Origin: a virus
Taxonomy: Duplodnaviria; Caudoviricetes
Strand: one strand, 5' to 3'
Virus record (IMG/VR): IMGVR_UViG_3300021387_000104
Location: 3,409-67,408 of that record
Length of the DNA: 64,000 nucleotides
Shown here: one piece after another, positions 7,318-48,608 of the stretch
Numbering within the stretch: the stretch's first letter is position 1
How the letters are laid out: every line of letters begins with the position of its first letter
Notes under the pieces: model-generated
What the model was told of the DNA's origin: nothing
What the model saw: only the letters and a program-made list of their open reading frames with translations
The model's database searches: none
Program-made: the position numbers and the translations under genes

Positions 7318-8745
7318 TTACCAAGTGTATTCTGAAATGGTCTTTTCAAGCGTTCCTTCACCTTGCTCTGCCAGACGGATGAAATCAAACACCTTTTCAG
7401 ACCATCCTGCTATGATGTTTGTCTTTGGTCCGTGGAACTGCTGTGTACCATAGCCTTGCAGGTCGATAGCGTGTACCCAGATGTCGTTGCCAGACTTCCT
7501 GCGGTATTGGTCTGCAAGCGATTGTACAGGGGAACTCCATCCACAATTGCACTGATTGTCTGAAATAATGATGATTCGGTCAGCATCTACGCGGTCAGCC
7601 AGCATTTTTTCAAACGGAAGACCCATTGCTGTGCCACCACTGGCGCGCGCTTCATGGACGGTCGTGTGCAGTATGCCGTTTCTGGAAGATATTGGTTGCT
7701 TACTGATGCTGTTGTTGAATGTATAGAAAATGCTGTTATCGCACATCTTGTTCGCGATCAGTCCGAGTAACATACCGATTTCACAGCACTGAATATCAGA
7801 TTTGCTGCTTATAAGACCACTCATCGAACCTGATACATCAACGGCGATTACGGTAGTGCCAGACAGACGCGGCATGTTTTCAATAGATGCTTCTACGGCG
7901 CTTTCAAGAGCGTCATACACGCGGCTGCCGGCGGAGGCAGGGAGATTCTTATAAGCGGAGAGAAAGCGGAACGGAAGCTGCTTGGACTTGTGTACGGCAA
8001 CGGGATCTTCAATGCGGTTAAGCACTTTTTCAATGTTGTCTGGCTTTGCTTCAATGATGTTTCTCAGGTTTCTGAGTAGCGCCATATATCCGACCTTGCC
8101 GCTATTGATAAGTCCCTCCCATGTCTTCTTGTTGTTGCCGTTCTTTGAAAGTTCAGTTTCCCATGTCAGCGGGGTTTCAAGCGTTCCTTCAAGACAACGC
8201 TTCCACATTGCTTCCTGTTCTGCGTCCTTCGGCTTCGGCCTGCACAGGCACAGCAAATCGCGCATTTTTACGCCTTTGCCATCACCCTTATACTTGGCAA
8301 GGGTATATTCATCGAACGTCTTAAGCACGTCGCAAATGCCGTTTCTGACAGAGTTGGGAATGGGCTTGCCGAACGTGTTCAAATAAAAAGACATAATTTC
8401 CGTCACGTCATCGCCGCGCAACGATACGCCACGGATGGTCTCACGCGCGTGTGGCTTGCCTTCAGGCTCATGCGCAAGAAAACCGGTCAGCACGTGCGCA
8501 ACAGAACGCATGTTGAACTCCCTGCGGGCGAACACGGCCAACTTGGAAACAAACTGTGGGTCGGTTTTGATAACGCGCTGGATGGTTTCTGTCATTTCCT
8601 TGCTGTTATCACCGTAGAACTTGCTTTCGTTGAAAAAGCTCGTAAGGACTTGCGTAATAAGCTTTTCCTTGTCATTCATACGGTAAGCGACGTGACCTTC
8701 CTTGTTGGTCGTCTTGATAGTAGCGGTGTTGTTGAACTTTGCCAT
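7318..8745 (-). CDS. rsr: Ro60/TROVE RNA-binding protein with C-terminal vWA domain
   Basis: TROVE motifs (SFFNESKFYG, ARREFNMRS, TWETELS, GYMALLRNLRNI, QLPFRFLSAY), vWA MIDAS DVSGSM and IIIISDNQ; AAAAGGAGGT RBS. Confidence 0.93.
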   Translation of the reverse strand: MAKFNNTATIKTTNKEGHVAYRMNDKEKLITQVLTSFFNESKFYGDNSKEMTETIQRVIKTDPQFVSKLAVFARREFNMRSVAHVLTGFLAHEPEGKPHARETIRGVSLRGDDVTEIMSFYLNTFGKPIPNSVRNGICDVLKTFDEYTLAKYKGDGKGVKMRDLLCLCRPKPKDAEQEAMWKRCLEGTLETPLTWETELSKNGNNKKTWEGLINSGKVGYMALLRNLRNIIEAKPDNIEKVLNRIEDPVAVHKSKQLPFRFLSAYKNLPASAGSRVYDALESAVEASIENMPRLSGTTVIAVDVSGSMSGLISSKSDIQCCEIGMLLGLIANKMCDNSIFYTFNNSISKQPISSRNGILHTTVHEARASGGTAMGLPFEKMLADRVDADRIIIISDNQCNCGWSSPVQSLADQYRRKSGNDIWVHAIDLQGYGTQQFHGPKTNIIAGWSEKVFDFIRLAEQGEGTLEKTISEYTW

Positions 8746-9996: not shown

Positions 9997-11061
9997 CTAT
10001 TTGATCTGGTCGGTAATCGCCTTTAGGTCGGATAAGGTAGAAGACTGATAGTGCTTCTTGGTGGTCTCGTAACTGGCGTGGCCCATCAGTTCGGCCTTGT
10101 CTTTGTCCGCCCCGACGAGTTTTTTAATTTTATTGGAATAGGTGTGTCTGGTGGCATATGGTACTTTGCCAACGATGCCGAGCTTGTCCATCATGGGATG
10201 CCAGATGAATTTGTTAAAGTACCTGGTAGGCATGACGGAATAAGTGCCGGTGGGTTTGCCTTTCCGGTCAAGGTCGATGCGCGGGAAAAGCAAATCCGTA
10301 CCATCAATCGCAAGGCAACGCTCGATAATCGGCTGCACACTGGATGGAATGGGAACTATACGGGTTTTTCCGGCCTCGGTCTTGATGCCGCCAGCAATGT
10401 AGTGTACGCTGTTTTCGGTATAGTAGTCAGACTTTTTGAAATTGAAAAACTCAGTTGGGCGATGACCAAGGTAGCATAAGGCGACTACATAATCAGCATA
10501 AGGAAGTCCTGATTCGGAGATACGTTTCAGTTCTTCCTCGCTTAGTGGTTCGTAATGTGTGGTCTCCTCATCGCCGGTGTAGAGGTTCGCGGCATTGTTC
10601 TTATAGATTTGGTCATCGTCGATGGCGTATTTGAAAACCAGTCCGGCAGTGACCTTCATCAAATCTTTTGTGCGTCTTCCTTTAGAGCAATTATCTATAC
10701 AGTTTTGCAAGTCAACCGCGCTGATCATGTCGATCTTCGTATAATGCAGTGGTTTGAAATGAATATTAAACACAGATGCATAGCCTTCCATGGTCTTTGC
10801 AGACACACGGTCAGCATATGACGCAGACCAACTTTTGAAGTTGTCAAGGAACGTCTTTGGTGGATGTTTGACGCGCTTTTTTTCAATGAGATCAGATAGA
10901 TAGTTCATCGCGTCTTTTTTCTTTTCAAAGCCGCCCTTGGTCTTCCAAACCGGCTTCAAACCAGCTTTGTTATCGGCAGGCTCATAGTGATCCACAACGC
11001 GTGCCGTCCAGGTGTTTCCGCGTTTATAGACGTTCCCTGTGCCGTTGGGGCGTTTGGACAT
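9997..11061 (-). CDS. int: Tyrosine integrase
   Basis: N-terminal arm-binding-like KRPNGTGNVYKR; catalytic GHRPTE (R), KTEAG (K), YATRHTY, LMGH and HY; AAGGAG RBS. Confidence 0.93.
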   Translation of the reverse strand: MSKRPNGTGNVYKRGNTWTARVVDHYEPADNKAGLKPVWKTKGGFEKKKDAMNYLSDLIEKKRVKHPPKTFLDNFKSWSASYADRVSAKTMEGYASVFNIHFKPLHYTKIDMISAVDLQNCIDNCSKGRRTKDLMKVTAGLVFKYAIDDDQIYKNNAANLYTGDEETTHYEPLSEEELKRISESGLPYADYVVALCYLGHRPTEFFNFKKSDYYTENSVHYIAGGIKTEAGKTRIVPIPSSVQPIIERCLAIDGTDLLFPRIDLDRKGKPTGTYSVMPTRYFNKFIWHPMMDKLGIVGKVPYATRHTYSNKIKKLVGADKDKAELMGHASYETTKKHYQSSTLSDLKAITDQIK

Positions 11062-11066
11062 ATCAT

Positions 11067-11711
11067 TCACTCCTTAAACATTCGCGTGAAGCCGACCGGC
11101 TTGCCTAAGATGCGAACGATGTTGTACTCGTCGAATGGCATAAACATAGGCTGATATGATGGATTGTCACTAACCAGCAACAGACCGTTATTCTGGCGAT
11201 AGACGTGTTTGAGCGTCGCGCTGTCGTCGAGCAATACGACAAGCACTTGTCCGTCATAGTCGATGGTATCTTGTGCGCGGATGAATACCACATCGCCGTC
11301 AAGAAAGTTGGGGCTCATGCTGTCACCGCTGATGCGGAGGGCGTAGTCTGCTTTGCACGGGCAGTCGATATAAGCATCATAACTCTCCTCGGCCAGGATC
11401 GGAGTGCCGGCGGCGACGGAGCCGATAAGGGGAACTTTGCTGAATGAGTCGGGGTTGATTTCCTTTAAACCGTTTGGCAAGCTGGTTTTATTCCATCCCA
11501 AGACAGCGGGAACATCAAGCGACAGCACTTTACATATTTTGACGATACTATCGAGAGAGAATTTTTGAGTTTTCCCTGTGACCCATCGATTAATAGACGA
11601 CTTGGCAACGCCTGTCTTTTCGCCAAGTTGCTCATAAGTAATTCCTTCAGAGGTCATGGCTTCAAGTATCCGTTGCCTTATGACCGGGGCTAATACTTCA
11701 TAATTATCCAT
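11067..11711 (-). CDS. cI: CI-like repressor (HTH plus S24 autoproteolytic domain)
   Basis: XRE HTH; VPLIGSVAAG cleavage region; GDSM (Ser) and TLKH (Lys). Confidence 0.92.
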   Translation of the reverse strand: MDNYEVLAPVIRQRILEAMTSEGITYEQLGEKTGVAKSSINRWVTGKTQKFSLDSIVKICKVLSLDVPAVLGWNKTSLPNGLKEINPDSFSKVPLIGSVAAGTPILAEESYDAYIDCPCKADYALRISGDSMSPNFLDGDVVFIRAQDTIDYDGQVLVVLLDDSATLKHVYRQNNGLLLVSDNPSYQPMFMPFDEYNIVRILGKPVGFTRMFKE

Positions 11712-11736
11712 AGAAACGACCTCCTTTTCAAAAAAT

Positions 11737-11852
11737 ATTATAATGTAGGAATCCCAATAATGCAATACTAAATCAAAAATTTTTGAAATTTTATCCCAAA
11801 AAGGGGTTGACAAGTTATTTCGCTTGTGTTAAGATTATCCCAGTTCCGGGAC
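11737..11852. promoter_or_regulatory. Divergent cI/cro promoters with three operator-like palindromes
   Basis: Rightward TTGACA(11807)-17-TAAGAT; leftward TTGCAT-17-TATAAT (11765 to 11737). ATCCCA-N4-TGGGAT variants at 11751, 11793 and 11837; a perfect copy at 12081. Confidence 0.8.
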
Positions 11853-11871: not shown

Positions 11872-12090
11872 GTGATTAACACAAATCTGTTAAAAGCCAA
11901 GATCGTCGCAAACGGCTTTACACAAGAACAGATTGCACAGAAAATGGGAATGTCAAAGAATACGTTTTCCTCAAAAATCAACAACAAATCGCCGTTTAAT
12001 ATTGCGGAAGTATTCCAACTTTGTGAACTTCTTCATATTGAAAACGCTGAAGAAAAATGTGCTATTTTTTTAGCCGGGGCATCCCAATAA
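11872..12090 (+). CDS. cro: Cro-like XRE regulator
   Basis: Short HTH protein divergent from cI. Confidence 0.82.
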   Translation: MINTNLLKAKIVANGFTQEQIAQKMGMSKNTFSSKINNKSPFNIAEVFQLCELLHIENAEEKCAIFLAGASQ

Positions 12091-12292: not shown

Positions 12293-12991
12293 ATGGCTAA
12301 GAAGACTGAAGAAAAGGCTGTCATCAAGATCAACCCCATCAAGCTGCAGAAGGCGCGCATCACTATCGTGGGCGACACGCCGCTGATCGTGCATTCCTGG
12401 TCGGAAAAGGCGAAAAAAGAGATGCTGGCGGTTCAGCAGAAAGTTGCAAAAGCCAAGAAGGCCAAGGACATTCGCGATCCGTTTGCTGAGTTCATGGATG
12501 CTGCTTACTGGATTACCCCTGAACCGGAAGAGAAGACCCCAGAAGCGTTTGAAAAAGCCGTGGCAGACGGTGCGAAGTTCGGCTTCAAGGTCATTCCGTT
12601 TAAGCTTGCGGCTATCAGCGCCTGCTACCGTGCCGGCATCACCAAGAACAAAGTGGATCTGATGTGCTCATTCTTTGTGAACGCTGTGGACGGTGTGTGT
12701 CACGCGACCGGTGAAGAACTGGCAGTCATCCGCTCCGACAGGCCTCCCATTCTGCGCGAGGACATGGTGAGGATCGGCGGCATCAGCAAGACTGCCGACC
12801 TGCGTTATCGTCCTTCCTTCGTCAACTGGAAGACTGACCTTGAGGTTACCCTGATCGACACCGGTGTGTTCGATATGCGCAGCATCATCGAGGCGATCAA
12901 CTTGGGCGGCTTCATGAACGGTGTCGGCGAGTGGCGAATGGAAAAGTGCGGTGATTTCGGGCGATTCCATGTGGAACTTGCGGAGGAGTAA
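12293..12991 (+). CDS. RAMP/Cas7-like RRM-fold protein (candidate guide-RNA-binding effector, Vipr-like)
   Basis: N-terminal strand ITIVGDTPLIVH and C-terminal glycine-rich loop GGFMNGVGEWRMEKCGDFGRFHV; lies upstream of the pentamer array. Motif-level recognition only. Confidence 0.7.
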   Translation: MAKKTEEKAVIKINPIKLQKARITIVGDTPLIVHSWSEKAKKEMLAVQQKVAKAKKAKDIRDPFAEFMDAAYWITPEPEEKTPEAFEKAVADGAKFGFKVIPFKLAAISACYRAGITKNKVDLMCSFFVNAVDGVCHATGEELAVIRSDRPPILREDMVRIGGISKTADLRYRPSFVNWKTDLEVTLIDTGVFDMRSIIEAINLGGFMNGVGEWRMEKCGDFGRFHVELAEE

Positions 12992-12992
12992 G

Positions 12993-13460
12993 ATGGCGGC
13001 TTTCAGTTACGCATACCATGTCCCTGGCTTGCAGAAGAACCCGGTCGAGGTTGTCGGCAAGGTACTGAACGAGTTGGCTAACAGCAACGGCGGACTAACC
13101 CCAAAGACGCTGCTGGATGCCAGCCGCGACGTGAATGCACCGCTCCACAACGAATTTGAATGGAATGACGGCATCGCCGCTGAGAAGTACCGAGAGTACC
13201 AAGCAAGGCAGATCATCCTGAATGTGTACGTCAAGTACTCTACCGACGAGCAGGAACGCGAACAGCAGGAACGGGCGTATGTCCCTGTTCCTGGCGGTAA
13301 AAGCGCCTATGTATCGCTGAAAGCCGCCCTGACCAATGATGAGTGGAAAGCCCATCTGATGGAAGAGGCCAAGCGCGACATGAAAGCCTTTGCCGCGAAG
13401 TACCGCAGACTGATTGAACTGCAAGACCTGATCCATGAAATGGAAGCGTTGTTCACATGA
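12993..13460 (+). CDS. Conserved partner protein of the RAMP-like gene
   Basis: GGAGGAG RBS; LTPKTLLDASRD...PLHNEFEWND..AAEKYR..QARQII motif; sits between the RAMP-like gene and the array. Confidence 0.75.
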   Translation: MAAFSYAYHVPGLQKNPVEVVGKVLNELANSNGGLTPKTLLDASRDVNAPLHNEFEWNDGIAAEKYREYQARQIILNVYVKYSTDEQEREQQERAYVPVPGGKSAYVSLKAALTNDEWKAHLMEEAKRDMKAFAAKYRRLIELQDLIHEMEALFT

Positions 13461-13575
13461 GAGCAACGGAAATGAAGGTGCCTGAACCGTACCAGAGAGG
13501 ACGGCACCGAAGTAGCACGGACGAAAAGCCTGTGTGAGGTAGCCTGAGATGGTGAGACATGGTACGACAAGATTA

Positions 13576-14370
13576 GGCAGTATTGGCAAGTTTAGACCTG
13601 TCGCGTTAAGGCAAGGCGCGGAATGGCAGTATCGGAAAGGCAGGTCGTGGTGAGGCGAGGCAATGCACGGATTGGCAGTCTAGGAGAGGCTTGGTGTGTC
13701 AGGGCGCGGATAGGCGTGTTCAGGCTTGGCAGTCAAGGTTCGTCACGGTCGTGTTGGGTTCGTAATGGCATGGAACGGAACGGCAGTTAAGGCAAGGAGC
13801 GGTTAGTTCAGGCGAGCCACGGCATGTAAAGGTCAGTTTAGGCAGTCCTGGATAGGCGAGCCGAGGCGTGGCCCGGAGAGGTACGGCCTGGGATGGCAGT
13901 CAGGGCTTGTTGTGGACGGGCACGTATCGGCCTGGCTTGGAGCGGCAGTCGCGGATAGGCAGTGTTCGGTTAGTCGCGGTTGGGACTGGCAGTATCGGAA
14001 TGTCAGGTAATGGCTTGTTCAGGCAGATTTTGGTTTGGCTATGTCTGGTATGGACAGGCAGTCAGGGCAAGGCCGGTTTAGGCGTCGATGGGATCGCATC
14101 GGACGGGCAGTCAAGGTAAGGCGAGTCGCGGAATGGCTTGCACAGGCTCGGAAGGGCAGTCTTGGAGAGGATGGGCTAGGCTCGGACCTGTTCGTCAAGG
14201 CATGGCAGTCATGGATGGGTTTGGCAAGGCTCGTACAGGCGCGGAATGGCAGTCATGGATGGGCCCGGAAGCGTTCGTTTGGTTGCGGCAGGGGGTGGCA
14301 AGCTCTGGCATGGCAGTCATGGAGAGGCGTGTCAAGCTGAGACGTGGACTGGCTGTGCGCGCAACGGCAG
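13576..14370 (+). repeat. Array of 15 units: GGCAG-TNNN head plus 7-12 GGN-NN pentamers (candidate guide-RNA array)
   Basis: GGCAGT heads at 13576, 13625, 13674, 13728, 13782, 13841, 13895, 13944, 13988, 14057, 14106, 14155, 14204, 14248 and 14312; closing GGCAG at 14366. All spacings (44-69 nt) equal 5n+4. Confidence 0.92.
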
Positions 14371-14400
14371 GAATGAAAACATCGAAAGGGGTGAGGAAGC

Positions 14401-14640
14401 ATGACATTCAGCGAAATTGAGAGTTCTGAAAAAGACTTTCTCACTCCTTCCGATGTAGCGCCAATTATGGGTTGTATGCCGTACAGCCTGAACGTGCAAG
14501 CCAAGGAGGATATCACGAAACTTGGGTTCCCTGCGTCGCTGGTCGGCACAAGGTTACTGATCCCACGCCTTGGCTTCATCCGGTGGGTGAAATACGGGAA
14601 CGCTCCGTTAGGAGAAAGGGAGGAAGAATATGGACGCTGA
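14401..14640 (+). CDS. Excisionase-like winged-helix protein
   Basis: FLTPSDVAPIMGC...LVGTRLLIPRLGFIRW. Confidence 0.65.
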   Translation: MTFSEIESSEKDFLTPSDVAPIMGCMPYSLNVQAKEDITKLGFPASLVGTRLLIPRLGFIRWVKYGNAPLGEREEEYGR

Positions 14641-14835: not shown

Positions 14836-15036
14836 ATGGGAAAGCATGAGTATTACTGTACACAGCGTCCCGCTGTGCCAGGCGCGATACCGCGCGGCGT
14901 GGTCGGAATCATGGAACTGGACAAGGCGAACATCATTCCGGAAATCGGGAAGGGCGCTTACTCCATCGTAGTATATGACCGTGAACTGACTTGGCAGGAA
15001 ATGCAAGACTTTGAACTGACGGAAAAGAGGAGTTGA
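14836..15036 (+). CDS. DarA C-terminal-like small domain protein (tentative)
   Basis: YYCTQRP..PGAIP...VYDRELT..EM.DFEL pattern. Confidence 0.5.
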   Translation: MGKHEYYCTQRPAVPGAIPRGVVGIMELDKANIIPEIGKGAYSIVVYDRELTWQEMQDFELTEKRS

Positions 15037-16213: not shown

Positions 16214-16633
16214 ATGGCTGACAGGGAGAAGGTCATCAGGGCCGTTGAAACTTGTTTTGATAGCTGGATTGATAAGCACCGGAACATGGGTCTTGATTTG
16301 CATGAAGTCGATCGGTTGAAACGAGAAGCGCTGGAATTGCTGAAAGAACAGGAGCCAAAGGTACTGACACGGGAAGAGCTAAAACAGTTTGATGAACGTC
16401 CTTGCTGGTTTGAATCTCACGGGACGTATATGGGTCAAAAAGGCTTTTGGATCATACCATATATGTTTACTTGTTATGAAACTATGTACTACGTGTATCC
16501 ACTTATGCAAATAAACGATCGTGGAGACTGTCATTTTTCTGAATTGGGATTGAGTGCATATAACAAAGCGTGGCGCTGCTGGTCCGCTCGACCGACAGAT
16601 GAACAGCGAAAGGCGGTGAAGTGGGATGACTGA
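16214..16633 (+). CDS. REK/KEQEP family protein 1
   Basis: DREKVI...ALELLKEQEP...AVKW. Confidence 0.65.
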   Translation: MADREKVIRAVETCFDSWIDKHRNMGLDLHEVDRLKREALELLKEQEPKVLTREELKQFDERPCWFESHGTYMGQKGFWIIPYMFTCYETMYYVYPLMQINDRGDCHFSELGLSAYNKAWRCWSARPTDEQRKAVKWDD

Positions 16634-16886
16634 CAGGGAGAAGGCCATAAGCAATTTTGAGCATGAAGTGAACAAGACCCACGACAGAGGGTGGGGCATT
16701 GTCGATTTGCGCATAGAAGACGCCAAGGAAATACTTGCGTTGCTGAAAGAGCAGGAACCCGCTCGTATTCAAAAACGCGAATTTGCACATATGTGGTTCT
16801 GGTGCTGTGGGTCTTGTGGCGTAGCAATAACAGAAGGGGATAGGTTTTGCAGGATGTGCGGAAGGGCGGTGAAGTGGGATGAATAA
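16626..16886 (+). CDS. REK/KEQEP family zinc-ribbon protein 2
   Basis: LLKEQEP...CGSCG...FCRMCGRAVKW. Confidence 0.7.
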   Translation: MTDREKAISNFEHEVNKTHDRGWGIVDLRIEDAKEILALLKEQEPARIQKREFAHMWFWCCGSCGVAITEGDRFCRMCGRAVKWDE

Positions 16887-17073
16887 AAAACGCAAGTATT
16901 ATCGAAGGTGTGGAATTTGCGGAAAAAGGTATGAACAGAAAGAGATGAAGAGAACACCATATAGCAAAAACGGATGGCTTTGTAAAGAGTGCTATGAAGA
17001 TGAAACAGATGCGTTTTTGATGTTTGATAATAATACAGGAGACCCTATTGGCTATGATTTAGATGAATGGTGA
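16879..17073 (+). CDS. Small CxxC zinc-binding protein
   Basis: CGICG...CKEC. Confidence 0.55.
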   Translation: MNKKRKYYRRCGICGKRYEQKEMKRTPYSKNGWLCKECYEDETDAFLMFDNNTGDPIGYDLDEW

Positions 17074-17310
17074 ATGGAAAGCAGGCAAAGTAGGATGATG
17101 ATAAAGAAGCGGCCAACGGCAAGGATTGAATGGAGCAACGGTAACGACGGTTGGGATGGGCGTTATTACATAGCGTATTACTGCCCAGAGTGCGGTCGAA
17201 GAATACAACACTATGCCAAAGACAACGCCTGTGAGCGGTGCGGAACCTTTTACGACTGGGGAGAGCGTGAACCCACCATTGAAATAACGAGGAGCGTCAA
17301 ATGGGAATGA
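17074..17310 (+). CDS. Small zinc-ribbon protein
   Basis: YCPECG...CERCG. Confidence 0.55.
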   Translation: MESRQSRMMIKKRPTARIEWSNGNDGWDGRYYIAYYCPECGRRIQHYAKDNACERCGTFYDWGEREPTIEITRSVKWE

Positions 17311-17702
17311 AAAAGACAATTTGCCTGTTGGTACTGGTTGTGTTTATGGCGGTCATACTCACAGGGTGTATGGAGCAGGAAGCAGATAAGGTCACAAGAA
17401 ATCTCAGCTTACAGGCCGACAATTTCAATGTGACTCGCCGGGTGACGGTGTATAACTGCCGTACCGACAAGATACTGCTTGAAGTGGTCGGGAACCTGAG
17501 TGTGCAAAAGTCTGGCGGTGACGTTGACCTGATCATTGAAGTCGCTCCGGGGCAGTACAAAAAGCACTTCGTTCGCCTGAACGACTGGACGATGTACGTT
17601 GTCGAGGACGTTTCCGGTGCTTTTGCGGATAAATACCATTACACAATCAATTTCCTCCCGGATTCGATCATGCCTATCAGGTTTACAAACAACATTGATT
17701 AA
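17301..17702 (+). CDS. Phage lipoprotein
   Basis: Signal peptide with LTGC lipobox. Confidence 0.75.
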   Translation: MGMKKTICLLVLVVFMAVILTGCMEQEADKVTRNLSLQADNFNVTRRVTVYNCRTDKILLEVVGNLSVQKSGGDVDLIIEVAPGQYKKHFVRLNDWTMYVVEDVSGAFADKYHYTINFLPDSIMPIRFTNNID

Positions 17703-17716
17703 GGCGGTGAAATGGG

Positions 17717-18013
17717 ATGACTGATCGAGAGAAAGCTATCAAGGGGCTGACACATTGTACCGCGTGGAGTGGCTTACATGAATGTCAGCCGAAGGTTGGG
17801 GACGATTGCCCATATGAAGACGAGGCTGACTGTCAGTTGTCTCTTATGCGTGATGCCCTTGTCCTGCTGAAAGAGCAGGAGCCCGTGAAACCGATCACCG
17901 ACCAGGGCGCTGTGTTCAGGACGTATGCTTGCGGCAATTGCAAGACGCACTTTTACCTGCGCCAGCAAAAATACTGCGCCATATGCGGAAGGGCGGTGAA
18001 ATGGAATGAATGA
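17717..18013 (+). CDS. REK/KEQEP family zinc-ribbon protein 3
   Basis: DREKAIKGL.HC...LLKEQEPV...CGNC...YCAICGRAVKW. Confidence 0.7.
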   Translation: MTDREKAIKGLTHCTAWSGLHECQPKVGDDCPYEDEADCQLSLMRDALVLLKEQEPVKPITDQGAVFRTYACGNCKTHFYLRQQKYCAICGRAVKWNE

Positions 18014-18711: not shown

Positions 18712-19290
18712 ATGGTTGATTACGCAAAACGAGAACTAGACATCCTCTGCCCGCCGGATGAGAACGGTAGGAAAGACCCGATGCAGGAGATGGCAGACAA
18801 AAACGTTCTGGACATCGTTGCTATGTTTGCTGAACAGGGCCATAGTGGCATGACTGCGCTCTATGTACTGAGCATCCTGGATCGCGTATTGCGTTTCAAG
18901 CCCATTACACCGCTCACGGGAGCGGATGAGGAGTGGAAAGACGTAGGCAATGGCGAAGAGCAAAACAAGCGCTGTTTCTCGGTGTTCAGGTATAATCACG
19001 ACAACACGACCGCCTATGACAGCGAAGGCAAGGTATTCAGCGATGACGGCGGGAAGACGTTTTACAGCTGCCGCGAATCGCATGTGCCGGTCACGTTCCC
19101 CTATACGCCGCCCACTCACCCTGAGCACGTGATCCTGAAGGAGGCTGAACCTACCACCGCAGAAATGCAGCTTCAGATGGCAATCGAGGACGCGGAGCAG
19201 TTTATGAAAAAAGCGCCGTATCTCGGCTACGATCACGCAAAAAACCTGATCGCGGCGGCAAAGGAGGTCATACATGCCGACAAAAGGTAA
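18712..19290 (+). CDS. Conserved phage hypothetical protein
   Basis: FAEQGHSG...PITPLTGADEEW...QNKRC..VFR. Confidence 0.65.
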   Translation: MVDYAKRELDILCPPDENGRKDPMQEMADKNVLDIVAMFAEQGHSGMTALYVLSILDRVLRFKPITPLTGADEEWKDVGNGEEQNKRCFSVFRYNHDNTTAYDSEGKVFSDDGGKTFYSCRESHVPVTFPYTPPTHPEHVILKEAEPTTAEMQLQMAIEDAEQFMKKAPYLGYDHAKNLIAAAKEVIHADKR

Positions 19291-48514: not shown

Positions 48515-48608
48515 AACAACTTTGGCGGATAGATCGACGGGTCGAAAAGTGGAGTGCCTTGCCACCTGCCGCCAATTAAAAAAGGCAAACCTATTAGGAG
48601 GCAATAGG

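What the first reader, a model, noticed from the sequence alone, without database searches (positions are those of the whole stretch)
13576..14365. Decoded dinucleotide strings give testable target predictions
Seen: the variable NN strings are U1 aa ta ct gc aa aa gc at; U2 aa ag gt ga ga aa ac tt; U3 ga tt gt ag gc ta gt ca tt; U4 tc ac cg tg tc at at ac ac; U5 aa gc ta ca ga ac at aa ca ta; U6 ta ga ga gt cc ga ac ct at; U7 tt gt cg ac tc ct tt gc; U8 ta ag tc ta gc tg ct; U9 at ag at tt ca ag tt tt ta ct at ca; U10 aa cg ta gt tg tc tc cg; U11 aa ga gc at tt ca tc ag; U12 ga tg ta tc cc tc aa at; U13 tg tt aa tc ca gc at; U14 tg cc ag tc tg gc ag gt aa ct at; U15 ga gt aa ga gt ct tg gc ac. 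Each carries 14-24 informative bases, enough to be specific in a phage-sized genome. Inference: if one target base is skipped per dinucleotide, the register is 3 nt and in-frame targets would tolerate synonymous wobble changes. A limited look at this phage's cI/cro and att regions found no self-match; I could not search exhaustively.
Basis: partly seen in the sequence, partly recalled or inferred. Interest (0 to 1): 0.7.

Follow-up and report, generated by a model that had tools for sequence, protein, structure and literature searches.

The report
Phage VIPR guide array with targets
This stretch is the guide-RNA array of a phage "VIPR" system, a CRISPR-related DNA silencer first described in 2026, and at least three of its guides spell conserved parts of replication and induction genes of rival phages.

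Summary
All 15 dinucleotide strings match the sequence exactly. The 14 GGCAGT spacings all equal 4 mod 5.

The array is the guide part of a VIPR system (bioRxiv 10.64898/2026.04.26.720920). It has three parts:
- a Cas7-like RAMP gene, 12293-12991 (Foldseek E 1.7e-5 to type VII Cas7);
- an accessory gene, 12993-13460;
- a "staggered" array of 15 guides built from xNNGG pentamers.

- Guide U14 has 65 exact sites in IMG/VR, all coding the HELGH motif of ImmA/IrrE proteases.
- Guide U6 has at least 117 sites in family-A DNA polymerases.
- Guide U4 has 56 sites in DUF2800 nucleases, lying about 3 kb from the U6 site in the same phages.
- Three other guides scanned with the same 18-base pattern type gave 0, 0 and 1 hits.
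- The carrier phage has no self-target and none of the three target gene families.

This is a new member of a known kind. This scan has already found VIPR loci in at least 7 other genomes.

The parts
11807..11835 (+). Promoter-like site ahead of the cro-like gene. It is the only such plus-strand site upstream of the module, so it probably drives the early transcript that carries vipr, vap and the array (inferred).
   Evidence: TTGACA, 17-nt spacer, TAAGAT, 10 of 12 matches. No terminator-like site lies between it and the array other than one weak in-array match.
11872..12090 (+). cro-like HTH gene, first gene of the early operon.
   Evidence: HTH_3 and DUF739. PHROG repressor families.
12293..12991 (+). 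vipr: a single-domain Cas7-like RAMP protein of 232 aa. It is predicted to polymerise on the guide RNA, one protomer per pentamer.
   Evidence: model pLDDT 81.6. Foldseek top matches are type VII Cas7 (8z4l_F, E 1.7e-5), Csm3 and Cas7-11. H34 and the glycine-rich GGxxxGxGEWR motif (G205, G206, G210, G212, E213, R215) are invariant in 24 of 24 sequences and W214 is present in at least 90%; 5,490 relatives, none named; phrog_4652, unknown function.
12993..13460 (+). vap-like accessory gene (155 aa from the ATG at 12993), always next to vipr.
   Evidence: both genes are adjacent in 20 of 21 viral loci; the 21st is cut off; phrog_15946; model pLDDT 87.5; only weak winged-helix-like matches (Z 4.4-5.3), so inconclusive.
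13461..13575 (+). 115-nt leader between the vap stop codon and the first GGCAGT. Its role is unknown.
   Evidence: sequence read.
13576..14371 (+). Staggered vrRNA array of 15 guide units. Each unit is CAGT plus 8-13 pentamers of form xNNGG. Neighbouring units are offset by -1 nt, because the last G of one unit is the first letter of the next unit's GCAGT. The array ends with a final GGCAGG at 14366.
   Evidence: RNA fold z-score -0.89, so no structure beyond shuffles; no Rfam family.
13734..13783 (+). Guide U4, 10 NN. Read on the antisense strand it spells V-V-M-I-E-Q-R-V-D-F of DUF2800 PD-(D/E)XK nucleases.
   Evidence: 56 exact 20-base sites in metagenome contigs, 55 of them in this motif. 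PF10926 on 3 of 3 pieces tested; 19 of 20 bases in 3 of 5 polymerase-bearing phage contigs, with 0 of 100 shuffles as good.
13847..13896 (+). Guide U6, 10 NN. Read on the sense strand it spells L-Y-(E/D)-D-V-P-D-T-L of phage family-A DNA polymerases.
   Evidence: The 10th NN never matches (TC in 110 sites, AG in 7). PF00476.
14254..14313 (+). Guide U14, 12 NN. Read on the antisense strand it spells (I/M)(R/S)F-T-L-A-H-E-L-G-H-I, the HEXXH zinc site of ImmA/IrrE (Peptidase_M78) proteins.
   Evidence: 65 exact sites for NN 1-9, and 65 of 65 read TLAHELGH. NN10 matches in 41 sites, NN11 in 17 and NN12 in 14; two sites match 12 of 12; the site lies inside a PF06114 domain in 5 of 5 contigs; 24 of 24 bases in G005.

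Best explanation
The region is the guide array of a phage-borne VIPR (Viral Interference Programmable Repeat) system.

What the sequence shows here: a conserved three-part module made of a Cas7-like RAMP gene (vipr), an accessory gene (vap) and a plus-strand array of xNNGG pentamers. The array is cut into 15 units by a 4-nt CAGT step.

What the preprints showed for E. coli phage SUSP1 and a Pseudomonas prophage, and what I infer for this clade:
- The array is transcribed and cut into vrRNAs.
- One Vipr protomer binds each pentamer and hides the constant GG(Y) bases.
- The exposed NN pairs base-pair with double-stranded DNA, skipping every third target base.
- Binding silences transcription.

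What the sequence searches show here: at least three guides read the first two codon positions of very conserved motifs in genes of other phages.
- U14 reads the HEXXH site of ImmA/IrrE anti-repressor proteases.
- U6 reads a motif of family-A DNA polymerase.
- U4 reads a motif of the DUF2800 nuclease that sits in the same replication module as that polymerase.

The carrier phage has none of these genes.

Inference: the module appears to sit in the early operon behind cro. The phage would therefore make these complexes early in infection or on induction. They would shut down replication of co-resident or co-infecting rival phages and keep ImmA-dependent rival prophages from inducing. Because the wobble base is skipped, rivals cannot escape by synonymous mutation.
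For: Anatomy
- Unit spacings all equal 4 mod 5, with constant G at positions 4-5 and near-random NN.

Conserved module
- In-frame xNNGG runs lie on the gene strand in 20 of 21 viral loci and 66 of 73 genome loci. The opposite strand has only a single minimal run in each of 4 of the 94 loci.
- vipr and vap are adjacent in 20 of 21 viral loci.
- In distant relatives the array lies between the two genes.

Protein
- RAMP fold.
- An invariant H34 and a glycine-rich loop ending E213-W214-R215. These resemble the H17 and D177-W178-R179 contacts reported for SUSP1 Vipr (10.64898/2026.04.26.720927, section 5 read).

NN positions carry information
- Between this array and its close relative L001, orthologous units differ at 16 of 105 position-1 letters.
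- They differ at only 7 of 210 NN letters, 5 of 210 GG letters and 0 of 44 CAGT letters.

The code
- Family-wide excess of long matches at gap 1 only.
- 14 of those 15 hits lie in a wobble-phase open frame of at least 100 codons.

Targets of this array
- U14: 65 sites.
- U6: at least 117 sites.
- U4: 56 sites.
- Same-type controls: 0, 0 and 1.
- The sites are diverse, not clonal. U14 has 53 distinct core sequences and its flanks are only 32% identical on average.
- U4 and U6 converge on one module (DUF2800, then an ssDNA-binding gene, then PolA) in 3-4 of 5 contigs.
- A guide from another VIPR locus (L058) hits motif A of the same polymerase family.

No self-targeting
- One search found no self-match.
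- PF06114, PF00476 and PF10926 are all absent from the complete carrier genome.
Against: - There is no expression, processing or binding evidence for this locus or for any staggered array. No RNA run holds it, and the first preprint says staggered arrays were not among the architectures confirmed by sRNA-seq.
- Only 3 of the 8 guides tested have convincing targets. U3, U15 and U12 found no site and U5 one chance-level site. U2's sites, including four contigs matching 9 of 9 NN, look like chance: one AT-rich big-phage ORF family.
- The L001 variant of U14 decodes to IRFAIAHELGHI. My prediction that it retargets another ImmA allele found no exact site; its 3 hits belong to one unrelated family.
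- The 10th NN of U6 never matches.
- The hit counts for one guide are not independent events: each guide hits one gene family.
- Position 1 is a pyrimidine in only 103 of 146 pentamers (A in 41). The published consensus is Y, and the SUSP1 pocket is said to exclude purines.
- The vap protein's fold is unresolved.
Confidence: 0.88

Rival explanations
1. The array is a protein-binding scaffold or sponge with no targeting role, like the TRAP site with its GAG/UAG triplets and 2-nt spacers. A ring or filament protein binds GG every 5 nt and the NN letters are free spacers. This was my own first guess.
For: Five-nt register with constant GG and variable NN. Units of 8-13 repeats resemble the subunit counts of ring proteins. 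The RNA has no structure beyond shuffles.
Against: - NN letters are as conserved as GG between close relatives (7 of 210 against 5 of 210), while position 1 drifts (16 of 105).
- NN strings of three guides spell conserved motifs of rival-phage genes in codon phase.
- The family-wide excess is seen only at gap 1.
- The partner protein has a RAMP fold.
Confidence: 0.03
2. The array is a DNA-level element: a replication origin with iterons, a centromere-like site, or a G-quadruplex-forming tract (GG-N3 repeats).
For: G-rich strand with GC skew 0.33-0.42 across the array. GGN3 repeats could in principle form two-tier quadruplexes (my own knowledge). It lies in the early region, where origins often lie.
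Against: - The phage has a separate replication module 10-20 kb away: SSB, sliding clamp, primase zinc ribbon and a DUF927 helicase.
- The array always lies on the coding strand of vipr (94 loci), which fits an RNA.
- Neither an origin nor a quadruplex explains the CAGT frame step, the NN conservation or the gapped codon-phase matches.
Confidence: 0.02
3. It is a real VIPR array, but the three 'targets' found here are not what it acts on. The matches arise because codon-like NN strings easily hit abundant conserved motifs. The true targets are elsewhere: host genes, regulatory DNA, or the targets of the 12 guides still unexplained.
For: U2's 16-base pattern picked up 59 in-frame coding sites that look like chance, so gapped patterns do gravitate to coding DNA. 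Hits for one guide come from one gene family, so they are not independent. In a sample of 121 Oscillospirales-order genomes only 1 carries an exact U14 site.
Against: - Three 18-base controls of the same type gave 0, 0 and 1 hits, against 65 and at least 117.
- All 65 U14 sites read H-E-x-x-H although the pattern also allows Q and D.
- U4 and U6, scanned in different collections, fall about 3 kb apart in the same phage module.
- An unrelated VIPR locus targets the same polymerase family.
- The carrier lacks all three families.
Confidence: 0.07

Closest known systems
VIPR systems (Vipr + vap + vrRNA), bioRxiv 10.64898/2026.04.26.720920. I read Results, Discussion, Methods sections 20, 26 and 27, and passages that included several supplementary figure legends. 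Structural companion 10.64898/2026.04.26.720927: abstract and section 5 read.
   Same: - Phage-borne.
- A minimal locus of one small RAMP protein plus one accessory gene.
- Guides of 8-13 pentamers with constant GG and hypervariable NN.
- Gapped targets with one skipped base, aligned to the codon wobble, on either DNA strand.
- No self-targets.
- Targets in rival mobile elements, including lysis-lysogeny genes and other vipr genes.
- A glycine-rich loop ending (D/E)-W-R.
   Different: - The characterised type II systems (SUSP1, P. fulva) have separate vrRNAs of about 100 nt, each with a structured 3' tail. Here the guides abut, with only a CAGT step between them and no tail.
- Position 1 is A in 41 of 146 pentamers, where the published consensus is Y.
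- The hosts are most likely gut or rumen Clostridia rather than Proteobacteria.
- The VIPR type (I-VII) cannot be assigned, because the tree and data S4 are in supplements I could not open.
'Staggered vrRNA arrays' of the same preprint (fig. S18 legend, seen).
   Same: The legend describes vrRNAs derived from positions that overlap by 1 nt, the end of one marking the start of the next. That is the -1 frame step seen here: unit length is 5n+4, and the last G of one unit is shared with the next GCAGT.
   Different: The preprint says only the ribozyme-interspersed and single-vrRNA architectures were confirmed by sRNA-seq, so staggered arrays are still a sequence-level inference. Here the target alignments show that the guide runs from the first pentamer after CAGT up to the last or next-to-last pentamer of its unit (U4 10 of 10, U14 12 of 12, U6 9 of 10).
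Wobble-aligned targeting of catalytic-core codons, bioRxiv 10.64898/2026.10.15.759431 (passages seen only).
   Same: That preprint reports a SUSP1 guide reading near-invariant codon positions next to the catalytic serine of a satellite recombinase. It also reports vipr-targeting vrRNAs that are about 90% wobble-aligned. The guides here follow the same logic, reading the HEXXH site of ImmA and conserved motifs of PolA and DUF2800. In related loci, guides read vipr itself.
   Different: The target classes differ: replication genes and an anti-repressor protease rather than a recombinase. One guide (U14) also covers genes whose flanks are only 32% identical on average, so it matches across a whole gene family rather than one satellite lineage. 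'Polymerase' and 'ImmA' do not occur in the main text of the first preprint. 'Polymerase' does not occur in the third, where ImmA was not among the terms searched. Their supplementary target tables were not visible.
Class 1 CRISPR-Cas backbone (Cas7/Csm3 filaments on crRNA).
   Same: RAMP fold. One protomer per fixed step of guide RNA, with periodic bases withheld from pairing (established knowledge: 6-nt step, every sixth base flipped).
   Different: There is no CRISPR repeat-spacer array. No cas1, cas2 or other cas family was found among the 77 ORFs scanned with Pfam. The step is 5 nt with only 2 pairing bases, and the target register is 3 nt.

Membership tests
VIPR system | Vipr protein: a small single-RRM RAMP with a glycine-rich loop and a thumb. 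| tested here: met
   Model pLDDT 81.6. The best PDB matches are Cas7-type RAMPs: 8z4l_F E 1.7e-5, then Csm3 and Cas7-11, with 28 matches at E <= 0.001. A thumb was not separately delineated.
VIPR system | GG(Y)-contact residues as in SUSP1 Vipr: H on the beta-sheet, D-W-R in the G-loop and a thumb arginine. | tested here: inconclusive
   H34, E213, R215 and several arginines (R155, R171, R173) are invariant in 24 of 24 sequences and W214 is present in at least 90%. This parallels H17, D177-W178-R179 and R138. The equivalence is by motif only; no SUSP1 sequence or structure was superposed.
VIPR system | vrRNA region of tandem YNNGG repeats (9-16 per guide, at least 4 for detection) next to vipr on the same strand. 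| tested here: met
   15 units of 8-13 pentamers. GG at positions 4-5 in 104 of 146 pentamers, and a G at position 4 or 5 in 145 of 146. The same holds in 20 of 21 viral and 66 of 73 genome loci, on the gene strand. Position 1 is Y in only 103 of 146.
VIPR system | Hypervariable NN between constant letters. | tested here: met
   15 of 16 dinucleotides are used, entropy 3.81 of 4 bits.
VIPR system | Adjacent accessory (vap) gene. | tested here: met
   The phrog_15946 homologue lies next to vipr in 20 of 21 viral loci. Whether it belongs to one of the published vap1-6 groups could not be tested, because no sequences were available. Its fold is only weakly winged-helix-like.
VIPR system | Natural targets obey the 1-nt skip rule, aligned to the wobble position, in other mobile elements. 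| tested here: met
   U14, U6 and U4. Family-wide excess at gap 1 only. Five other guides tested found no convincing target.
VIPR system | No self-targeting. | tested here: met
   best scores are no better than shuffles at gaps 0-3 across 67.4 kb; the target gene families are absent.
VIPR system | vrRNAs are expressed and processed, co-purify with Vipr, and the complex binds dsDNA and silences transcription. | not testable with these tools
   No RNA run holds the locus. The contigs laid are probably DNA.
VIPR system | Assignment to one of types I-VII by Vipr phylogeny, array architecture and vap. | not testable with these tools
   This needs the preprint's tree and data S4, and bioRxiv supplements are closed. 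Only the architecture ('staggered') can be named.
CRISPR-Cas | Array of identical 25-40-nt direct repeats separated by unique spacers, with cas1/cas2 adaptation genes. | tested here: not met
   No tandem or direct repeat of that kind. No Rfam CRISPR-DR family. No Cas family among the 77 ORFs scanned with Pfam.
TRAP-type RNA-binding site (triplets with free 2-nt spacers) | The spacer letters carry no information and are free to drift. | tested here: not met
   NN letters differ at 7 of 210 positions between close relatives, against 16 of 105 for position 1. NN strings also spell codon-phase targets.

The most novel reading that the evidence does not exclude
In this Clostridia/rumen clade the vrRNAs may be tail-less. 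Each guide would be delimited only by a 4-nt CAGT frame step and used over its whole length, which implies a processing or capping mechanism unlike the structured 3' tail of the characterised type II systems.

The array may also work as a set of family-wide guides. Each would be written against the first two codon positions of a catalytic or structural motif: ImmA HEXXH, a PolA motif and a DUF2800 motif. One 50-60-nt RNA could then silence that gene in hundreds of otherwise unrelated rival phages. U14's sites have flanks only 32% identical.

In effect this would be RNA-guided recognition of a protein motif rather than of a particular genome.
Probability: 0.45. Interest if true: 0.55.

Novelty: new member of a known kind. 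Interest (0 to 1): 0.4.

Why it matters
The kind of system is already in print: three 2026 preprints from one group. This locus therefore does not open a new category, and this scan had already met VIPR loci in at least seven other genomes.

Three things here are useful.
- It is an independent check of the noncontiguous code in a clade far from the E. coli and Pseudomonas systems that were tested. The check rests only on public sequence and includes gap-length, shuffle and polarity controls.
- It gives concrete natural targets for a staggered array, an architecture the preprint had not confirmed experimentally. The targets fix the guide boundaries: the guide starts at the first pentamer after CAGT and has no tail.
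- It shows which genes a gut/rumen temperate phage chooses to silence in its rivals: a DNA polymerase, its partner nuclease and the ImmA anti-repressor protease. These give ready-made reporter constructs for testing the clade.

Tried and rejected
Searches that gave nothing for the array
- Tandem Repeats Finder found nothing in the array, because the units are too unlike.
- Rfam had no family there.
- blastn of 12293-14640 against 50,697 phage records found no match.

My early ideas, dropped
- A TRAP-like or coat-protein-like scaffold, T-antigen or AAV-Rep-like pentamer iterons, G-quadruplexes, a Chi-like array and a Rho-avoidance tract.

Target searches
- Self-target search at gaps 0-3: nothing above shuffles.
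- Guides from other loci against this phage: only seeds at chance level.
- This array's guides against 1.2 Mb of related loci: only 6-NN seeds at chance level.
- U3 (NN 2-10) and U15 (NN 1-9): 0 exact sites in IMG/VR.
- U5 (NN 1-9): 1 site, and its extension fails.
- U2 (NN 2-9, 16 bases): 59 sites in about 15 unrelated protein families. Four contigs also match NN1, but they are one AT-rich big-phage ORF family, so I judged this chance.
- U12: 0 of 5 and 0 of 301 genomes at up to 2 and up to 1 mismatches. This test has little power, because the positive control U14 hit only 1 of 121 genomes of the same order.
- L001 variant of U14: 3 sites, all in one unrelated family, so the prediction was not confirmed.
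- U7 scored 16 of 18 in G004, but out of codon phase, inside an integrase gene. I treated this as chance among 15 guides.
- The best scores of U3, U4 and U15 clustered near the ImmA gene of G005, but they were at chance level and out of frame.

Expression
- No RNA holder is listed.
- Laying two bovine-gut 'metatranscriptomic WGS (probably DNA)' runs gave only contigs of related arrays and no information on RNA ends.

- Metagenome records are not held for the genome search, so the U4 target gene was named from 49-aa pieces instead.

Accessory protein
- No PDB match at E <= 0.001. The wide structural search gave only Z 4.4-5.3.
Full report
**1. What is there**

Between 13460 and 14400 no convincing gene is present. 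The plus strand is G-rich, with GC skew 0.33-0.42.

GGCAGT occurs 16 times in these 790 bases and 17 times in the rest of the 64-kb window. One in-frame copy sits inside a unit. Dropping it leaves 15 unit marks, spaced 49, 49, 54, 54, 59, 54, 49, 44, 69, 49, 49, 49, 44 and 64 bases. Every spacing is 5n+4.

After the four letters CAGT each unit is a run of 8-13 pentamers. Over all 146 pentamers:
- position 4 is G in 137;
- position 5 is G in 112 and T in 25;
- position 1 is C 70, A 41, T 33, G 2;
- positions 2-3 take 15 of the 16 dinucleotides, with entropy 3.81 of 4 bits.

**2. Surroundings**

The window lies in a complete 67.4-kb phage genome with direct terminal repeats. The local gene order is as follows.

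| Coordinates | Strand | Feature |
|---|---|---|
| 9997-11070 | minus | integrase-like ORF (not scanned with Pfam or PHROGs) |
| 11067-11813 | minus | S24 cI-type repressor |
| 11872-12090 | plus | cro-like gene |
| 12293-12991 | plus | protein A, 232 aa, phrog_4652 |
| 12993-13460 | plus | protein B, 155 aa, phrog_15946 |
| 13576-14371 | plus | the array |
| from 14401 | plus | small genes, including a DarA_C homologue (14836-15036) |
| 18712-19290 | plus | Tad3 homologue |

The only promoter-like site upstream on the plus strand is the one ahead of cro. No terminator-like site separates cro from the array. The module is therefore probably part of the early transcript. This is an inference.

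**3. The module is conserved**

Relatives of protein B in IMG/VR (21 loci, 33-91% identity) carry a relative of protein A next door in 20 of 21; the last locus is cut off.

In-frame xNNGG runs occur on the gene strand in 20 of 21 viral loci. In the distant relatives the runs lie between genes A and B. Relatives of protein A in species-representative genomes (73 loci) have such runs in 66 of 73, nearly always starting within about 1.2 kb after gene A. These loci come from Clostridia, Alphaproteobacteria, Actinobacteria, Bacteroidota and others, and the best is 50% identical. The opposite strand has only one minimal run in each of 4 of the 94 loci. Protein A has 5,490 unnamed relatives in the large protein collection.

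**4. The proteins**

Protein A was modelled from a 24-sequence alignment (pLDDT 81.6). It matches Cas7-type RAMP proteins: type VII Cas7 8z4l_F at E 1.7e-5, then Csm3 and Cas7-11, with 28 matches at E <= 0.001. H34 and a glycine-rich loop GGxxxGxGEWR are invariant apart from the W, which is present in at least 90% of the sequences.

Protein B (pLDDT 87.5) has no significant solved relative. The weak rows are winged-helix proteins at Z 4.4-5.3, which is inconclusive.

**5. Identification**

A text search led to bioRxiv 10.64898/2026.04.26.720920. I read Results, Discussion, Methods sections 20, 26 and 27, and passages that included several supplementary figure legends. It describes VIPR systems:
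- a minimal RAMP protein (Vipr), an accessory gene (vap) and vrRNAs of 9-16 YNNGG repeats;
- NN dinucleotides that pair with double-stranded DNA while skipping one target base per repeat;
- a skipped base that mostly falls on the codon wobble position;
- targets in rival phages, prophages, satellites and other VIPR systems;
- no self-targets;
- seven types;
- 'staggered arrays' in which vrRNAs overlap by 1 nt.

The companion preprint 10.64898/2026.04.26.720927 (abstract and section 5 read) shows one Vipr protomer per repeat in a helical filament. The GGY contacts come from H17, R138 and D177-W178-R179. Protein A's H34 and E213-W214-R215 parallel these by motif. I did not superpose structures.

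The -1 frame step at each GCAGT fits the 'staggered' description. The preprint states that this architecture was not among those confirmed by sRNA-seq.

**6. Are the NN letters information or spacer?**

My first guess was a scaffold with free spacers. Two results reject it.

First, I compared 11 orthologous units of this array with those of its close relative L001, whose protein A is identical and whose protein B is 91% identical. Differences fall as follows:

| Letter class | Differences |
|---|---|
| position 1 | 16 of 105 |
| NN | 7 of 210 |
| GG | 5 of 210 |
| CAGT | 0 of 44 |

Four units (U5, U7, U9 and part of U8) are replaced outright. The NN letters are therefore held constant within a guide, and guides turn over as whole cassettes.

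Second, I ran a family-wide test. I extracted 407 guide frames from all loci, masked the arrays, and looked for seeds of six consecutive NN in 2.5 Mb (both strands).

| Query type | Gap 0 | Gap 1 | Gap 2 | Gap 3 |
|---|---|---|---|---|
| Real guides, runs of 8 or more NN | 5 | 15 | 2 | 2 |
| Three shuffles, total | 6 | 3 | 1 | 6 |
| Reversed polarity | 1 | 1 | 0 | 0 |

Both gap-3 hits are array-to-array homology. The 15 gap-1 hits come from 10 distinct guide frames; one guide hits the vipr genes of six loci.

The gap-1 hits are in codon phase.
- The L028 guide reads GMGTADLRYR of other vipr genes.
- The L037 guide reads the first codons of the vipr gene in L026.
- The L033 guide reads NAGGYVCG of vipr in L028.
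- The L058 guide reads DFSAIEARVLAW, motif A of a family-A polymerase.
- 14 of the 15 lie in a wobble-phase open frame of at least 100 codons.

In these alignments pairing starts at the first pentamer after GCAG.

**7. Targets of this window's guides**

| Guide and NN scanned | Collection | Exact sites | Verdict |
|---|---|---|---|
| U3, NN 2-10 | IMG/VR | 0 | none |
| U15, NN 1-9 | IMG/VR | 0 | none |
| U5, NN 1-9 | IMG/VR | 1 | extension fails |
| U2, NN 2-9 (16 bases) | IMG/VR | 59 | chance-like |
| U14, NN 1-9 | IMG/VR | 65 | ImmA/IrrE HEXXH site |
| U4, NN 1-10 (20 bases) | metagenome contigs | 56 | DUF2800 nuclease |
| U12, NN 1-9 | 5 and 301 genomes | 0 | low power |

*U14.* All 65 sites read T-L-A-H-E-L-G-H-(I/M) on the opposite strand, although the pattern would also allow Q or D. 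NN10 (the F codon) matches in 41 sites, NN11 in 17 and NN12 in 14. Two sites match all 12 NN. In 5 of 5 contigs checked, the site lies inside a Peptidase_M78 (ImmA/IrrE) domain. The sites comprise 53 distinct core sequences, and their flanks are on average 32% identical.

*U6.* All 117 sites read L-Y-(E/D)-D-V-P-D-T-L on the guide-sense strand, inside proteins that match DNA_pol_A. The 10th NN never matches.

*U4.* 55 of the 56 sites read V-V-M-I-E-Q-R-V-D-F on the opposite strand, inside DUF2800 (PF10926, 3 of 3 pieces tested).

*Convergence of U4 and U6.* I took five IMG/VR contigs chosen only for the U6 site and scored U4 on them.
- U4 scores 19 of 20 in three contigs and 16 of 20 in a fourth, about 2.8-3 kb from the polymerase site.
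- In the fifth contig, which begins about 1.8 kb before the polymerase site, it scores 13 of 20.
- 0 of 100 shuffles reach 19.

In the complete provirus G010 the module reads DUF2800, Enc34-type ssDNA-binding protein, PolA, D5 primase-helicase and SNF2 helicase.

*The carrier phage.* It has no PF06114, PF00476 or PF10926 match. No site in its genome scores above shuffles.

**8. Results against the reading, or left open**

- Five of the eight guides tested have no convincing target.
- The U12 negative has little power, because the positive control U14 hit only 1 of 121 genomes of the same order.
- The L001 variant of U14 decodes to IRFAIAHELGHI, but its 9-NN block found only three sites in one unrelated family.
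- No RNA data exist for the locus.
- Related contigs from bovine-gut runs show arrays with whole units skipped or replaced near the GGCAGT marks. These runs are probably DNA and say nothing about transcripts.
- Position 1 is often A, unlike the published Y.
- Shuffled versions of this window's own guides could not be scanned against the large collections. The control there is the set of three other 18-base guides.

**9. Mechanism, with status**

*Shown here by sequence.* The anatomy, the conservation, the RAMP fold, constraint on the NN letters, gap-1 codon-phase targets, target gene families and the absence of self-targets.

*Shown by others for type II systems.* RNP filament formation, gapped pairing with triplex formation and transcriptional silencing.

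*Inferred for this locus.*
- The same biochemistry applies.
- The guides are tail-less and delimited by CAGT.
- Expression comes from the early operon.
- Silencing the polymerase and nuclease blocks a rival's replication.
- Silencing immA keeps ImmA-dependent rival prophages from inducing.

**10. Novelty**

The kind is already known. A third preprint (10.64898/2026.10.15.759431; passages only) already describes wobble-aligned guides aimed at catalytic-core codons and at vipr genes. This scan has reported VIPR loci in at least seven other genomes.

New here are the specific targets and the guide boundaries for a staggered array in a gut/rumen phage. 'Polymerase' and 'ImmA' do not occur in the main text of the first preprint, and 'polymerase' does not occur in the third, where ImmA was not among the terms searched.

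This is a new member of a known kind, of moderate interest.

Noticed in passing
L028:3022-3086; targets in L037, L066, L093, L006, L010, L053: One guide of another VIPR locus (a Lachnospiraceae MAG) matches 9-10 consecutive NN in the vipr genes of six other loci, one of them from a Rhizobiales genome. It reads the conserved GMGTADLRYR codons. Guides in L037 and L033 also hit rival vipr genes. This is VIPR-against-VIPR warfare within this clade.
   Followed up: partly
L058:10650-10704; target L056:15614: A guide of an unrelated VIPR locus reads DFSAIEARVLAW (polymerase motif A). This motif lies about 15 codons downstream of the motif read by this window's U6 in the same polymerase family. Two independent arrays have converged on one gene.
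   Followed up: partly
window 14204-14247 (U13) and 14248-14311 (U14): U13 shares its first two pentamers with U14. On the antisense strand it decodes to (I/M)-A-(C/W)-(D/E)-(F/L)-(K/N)-(H/Q)-(I/M), which looks like a diverged copy of the AHELGHI reading. Its target is unknown and was not scanned.
   Followed up: no
window 13617-13728 and 13787-14241, as laid: Contigs from bovine-gut runs carry related arrays in which whole blocks of units are skipped or replaced. The break points lie within a few bases of GGCAGT marks. This suggests unit-level recombination at the delimiters.
   Followed up: partly
window 12293-14371 compared with L002-L021: The gene order differs between clades. In distant relatives it is vipr, array, vap. 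In this window and in L001 it is vipr, vap, array, with vap starting one base after the vipr stop codon.
   Followed up: partly
window 7318-8745 (minus strand): The phage encodes a Ro60/TROVE protein with a vWA domain (TROVE E 4.5e-32).
   Followed up: no
window 14836-15036 and 18712-19290: A DarA_C homologue and a Tad3 (anti-Thoeris) homologue lie downstream of the VIPR module. The early region therefore looks like a stretch of competition and counter-defence genes.
   Followed up: no
window 16214-18013: Several small ORFs end in the same peptide (A/S)VKW(D/N/E)(D/E). Each stop codon overlaps the next ORF's start, which reads MTDREKAI in two of them. This is a tandem family of small zinc-ribbon-like paralogues of unknown role.
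   Followed up: no
window 48522-48586: An Rfam int-alpA RNA match (46.3 bits, above the gathering score) lies among the head-morphogenesis genes.
   Followed up: no
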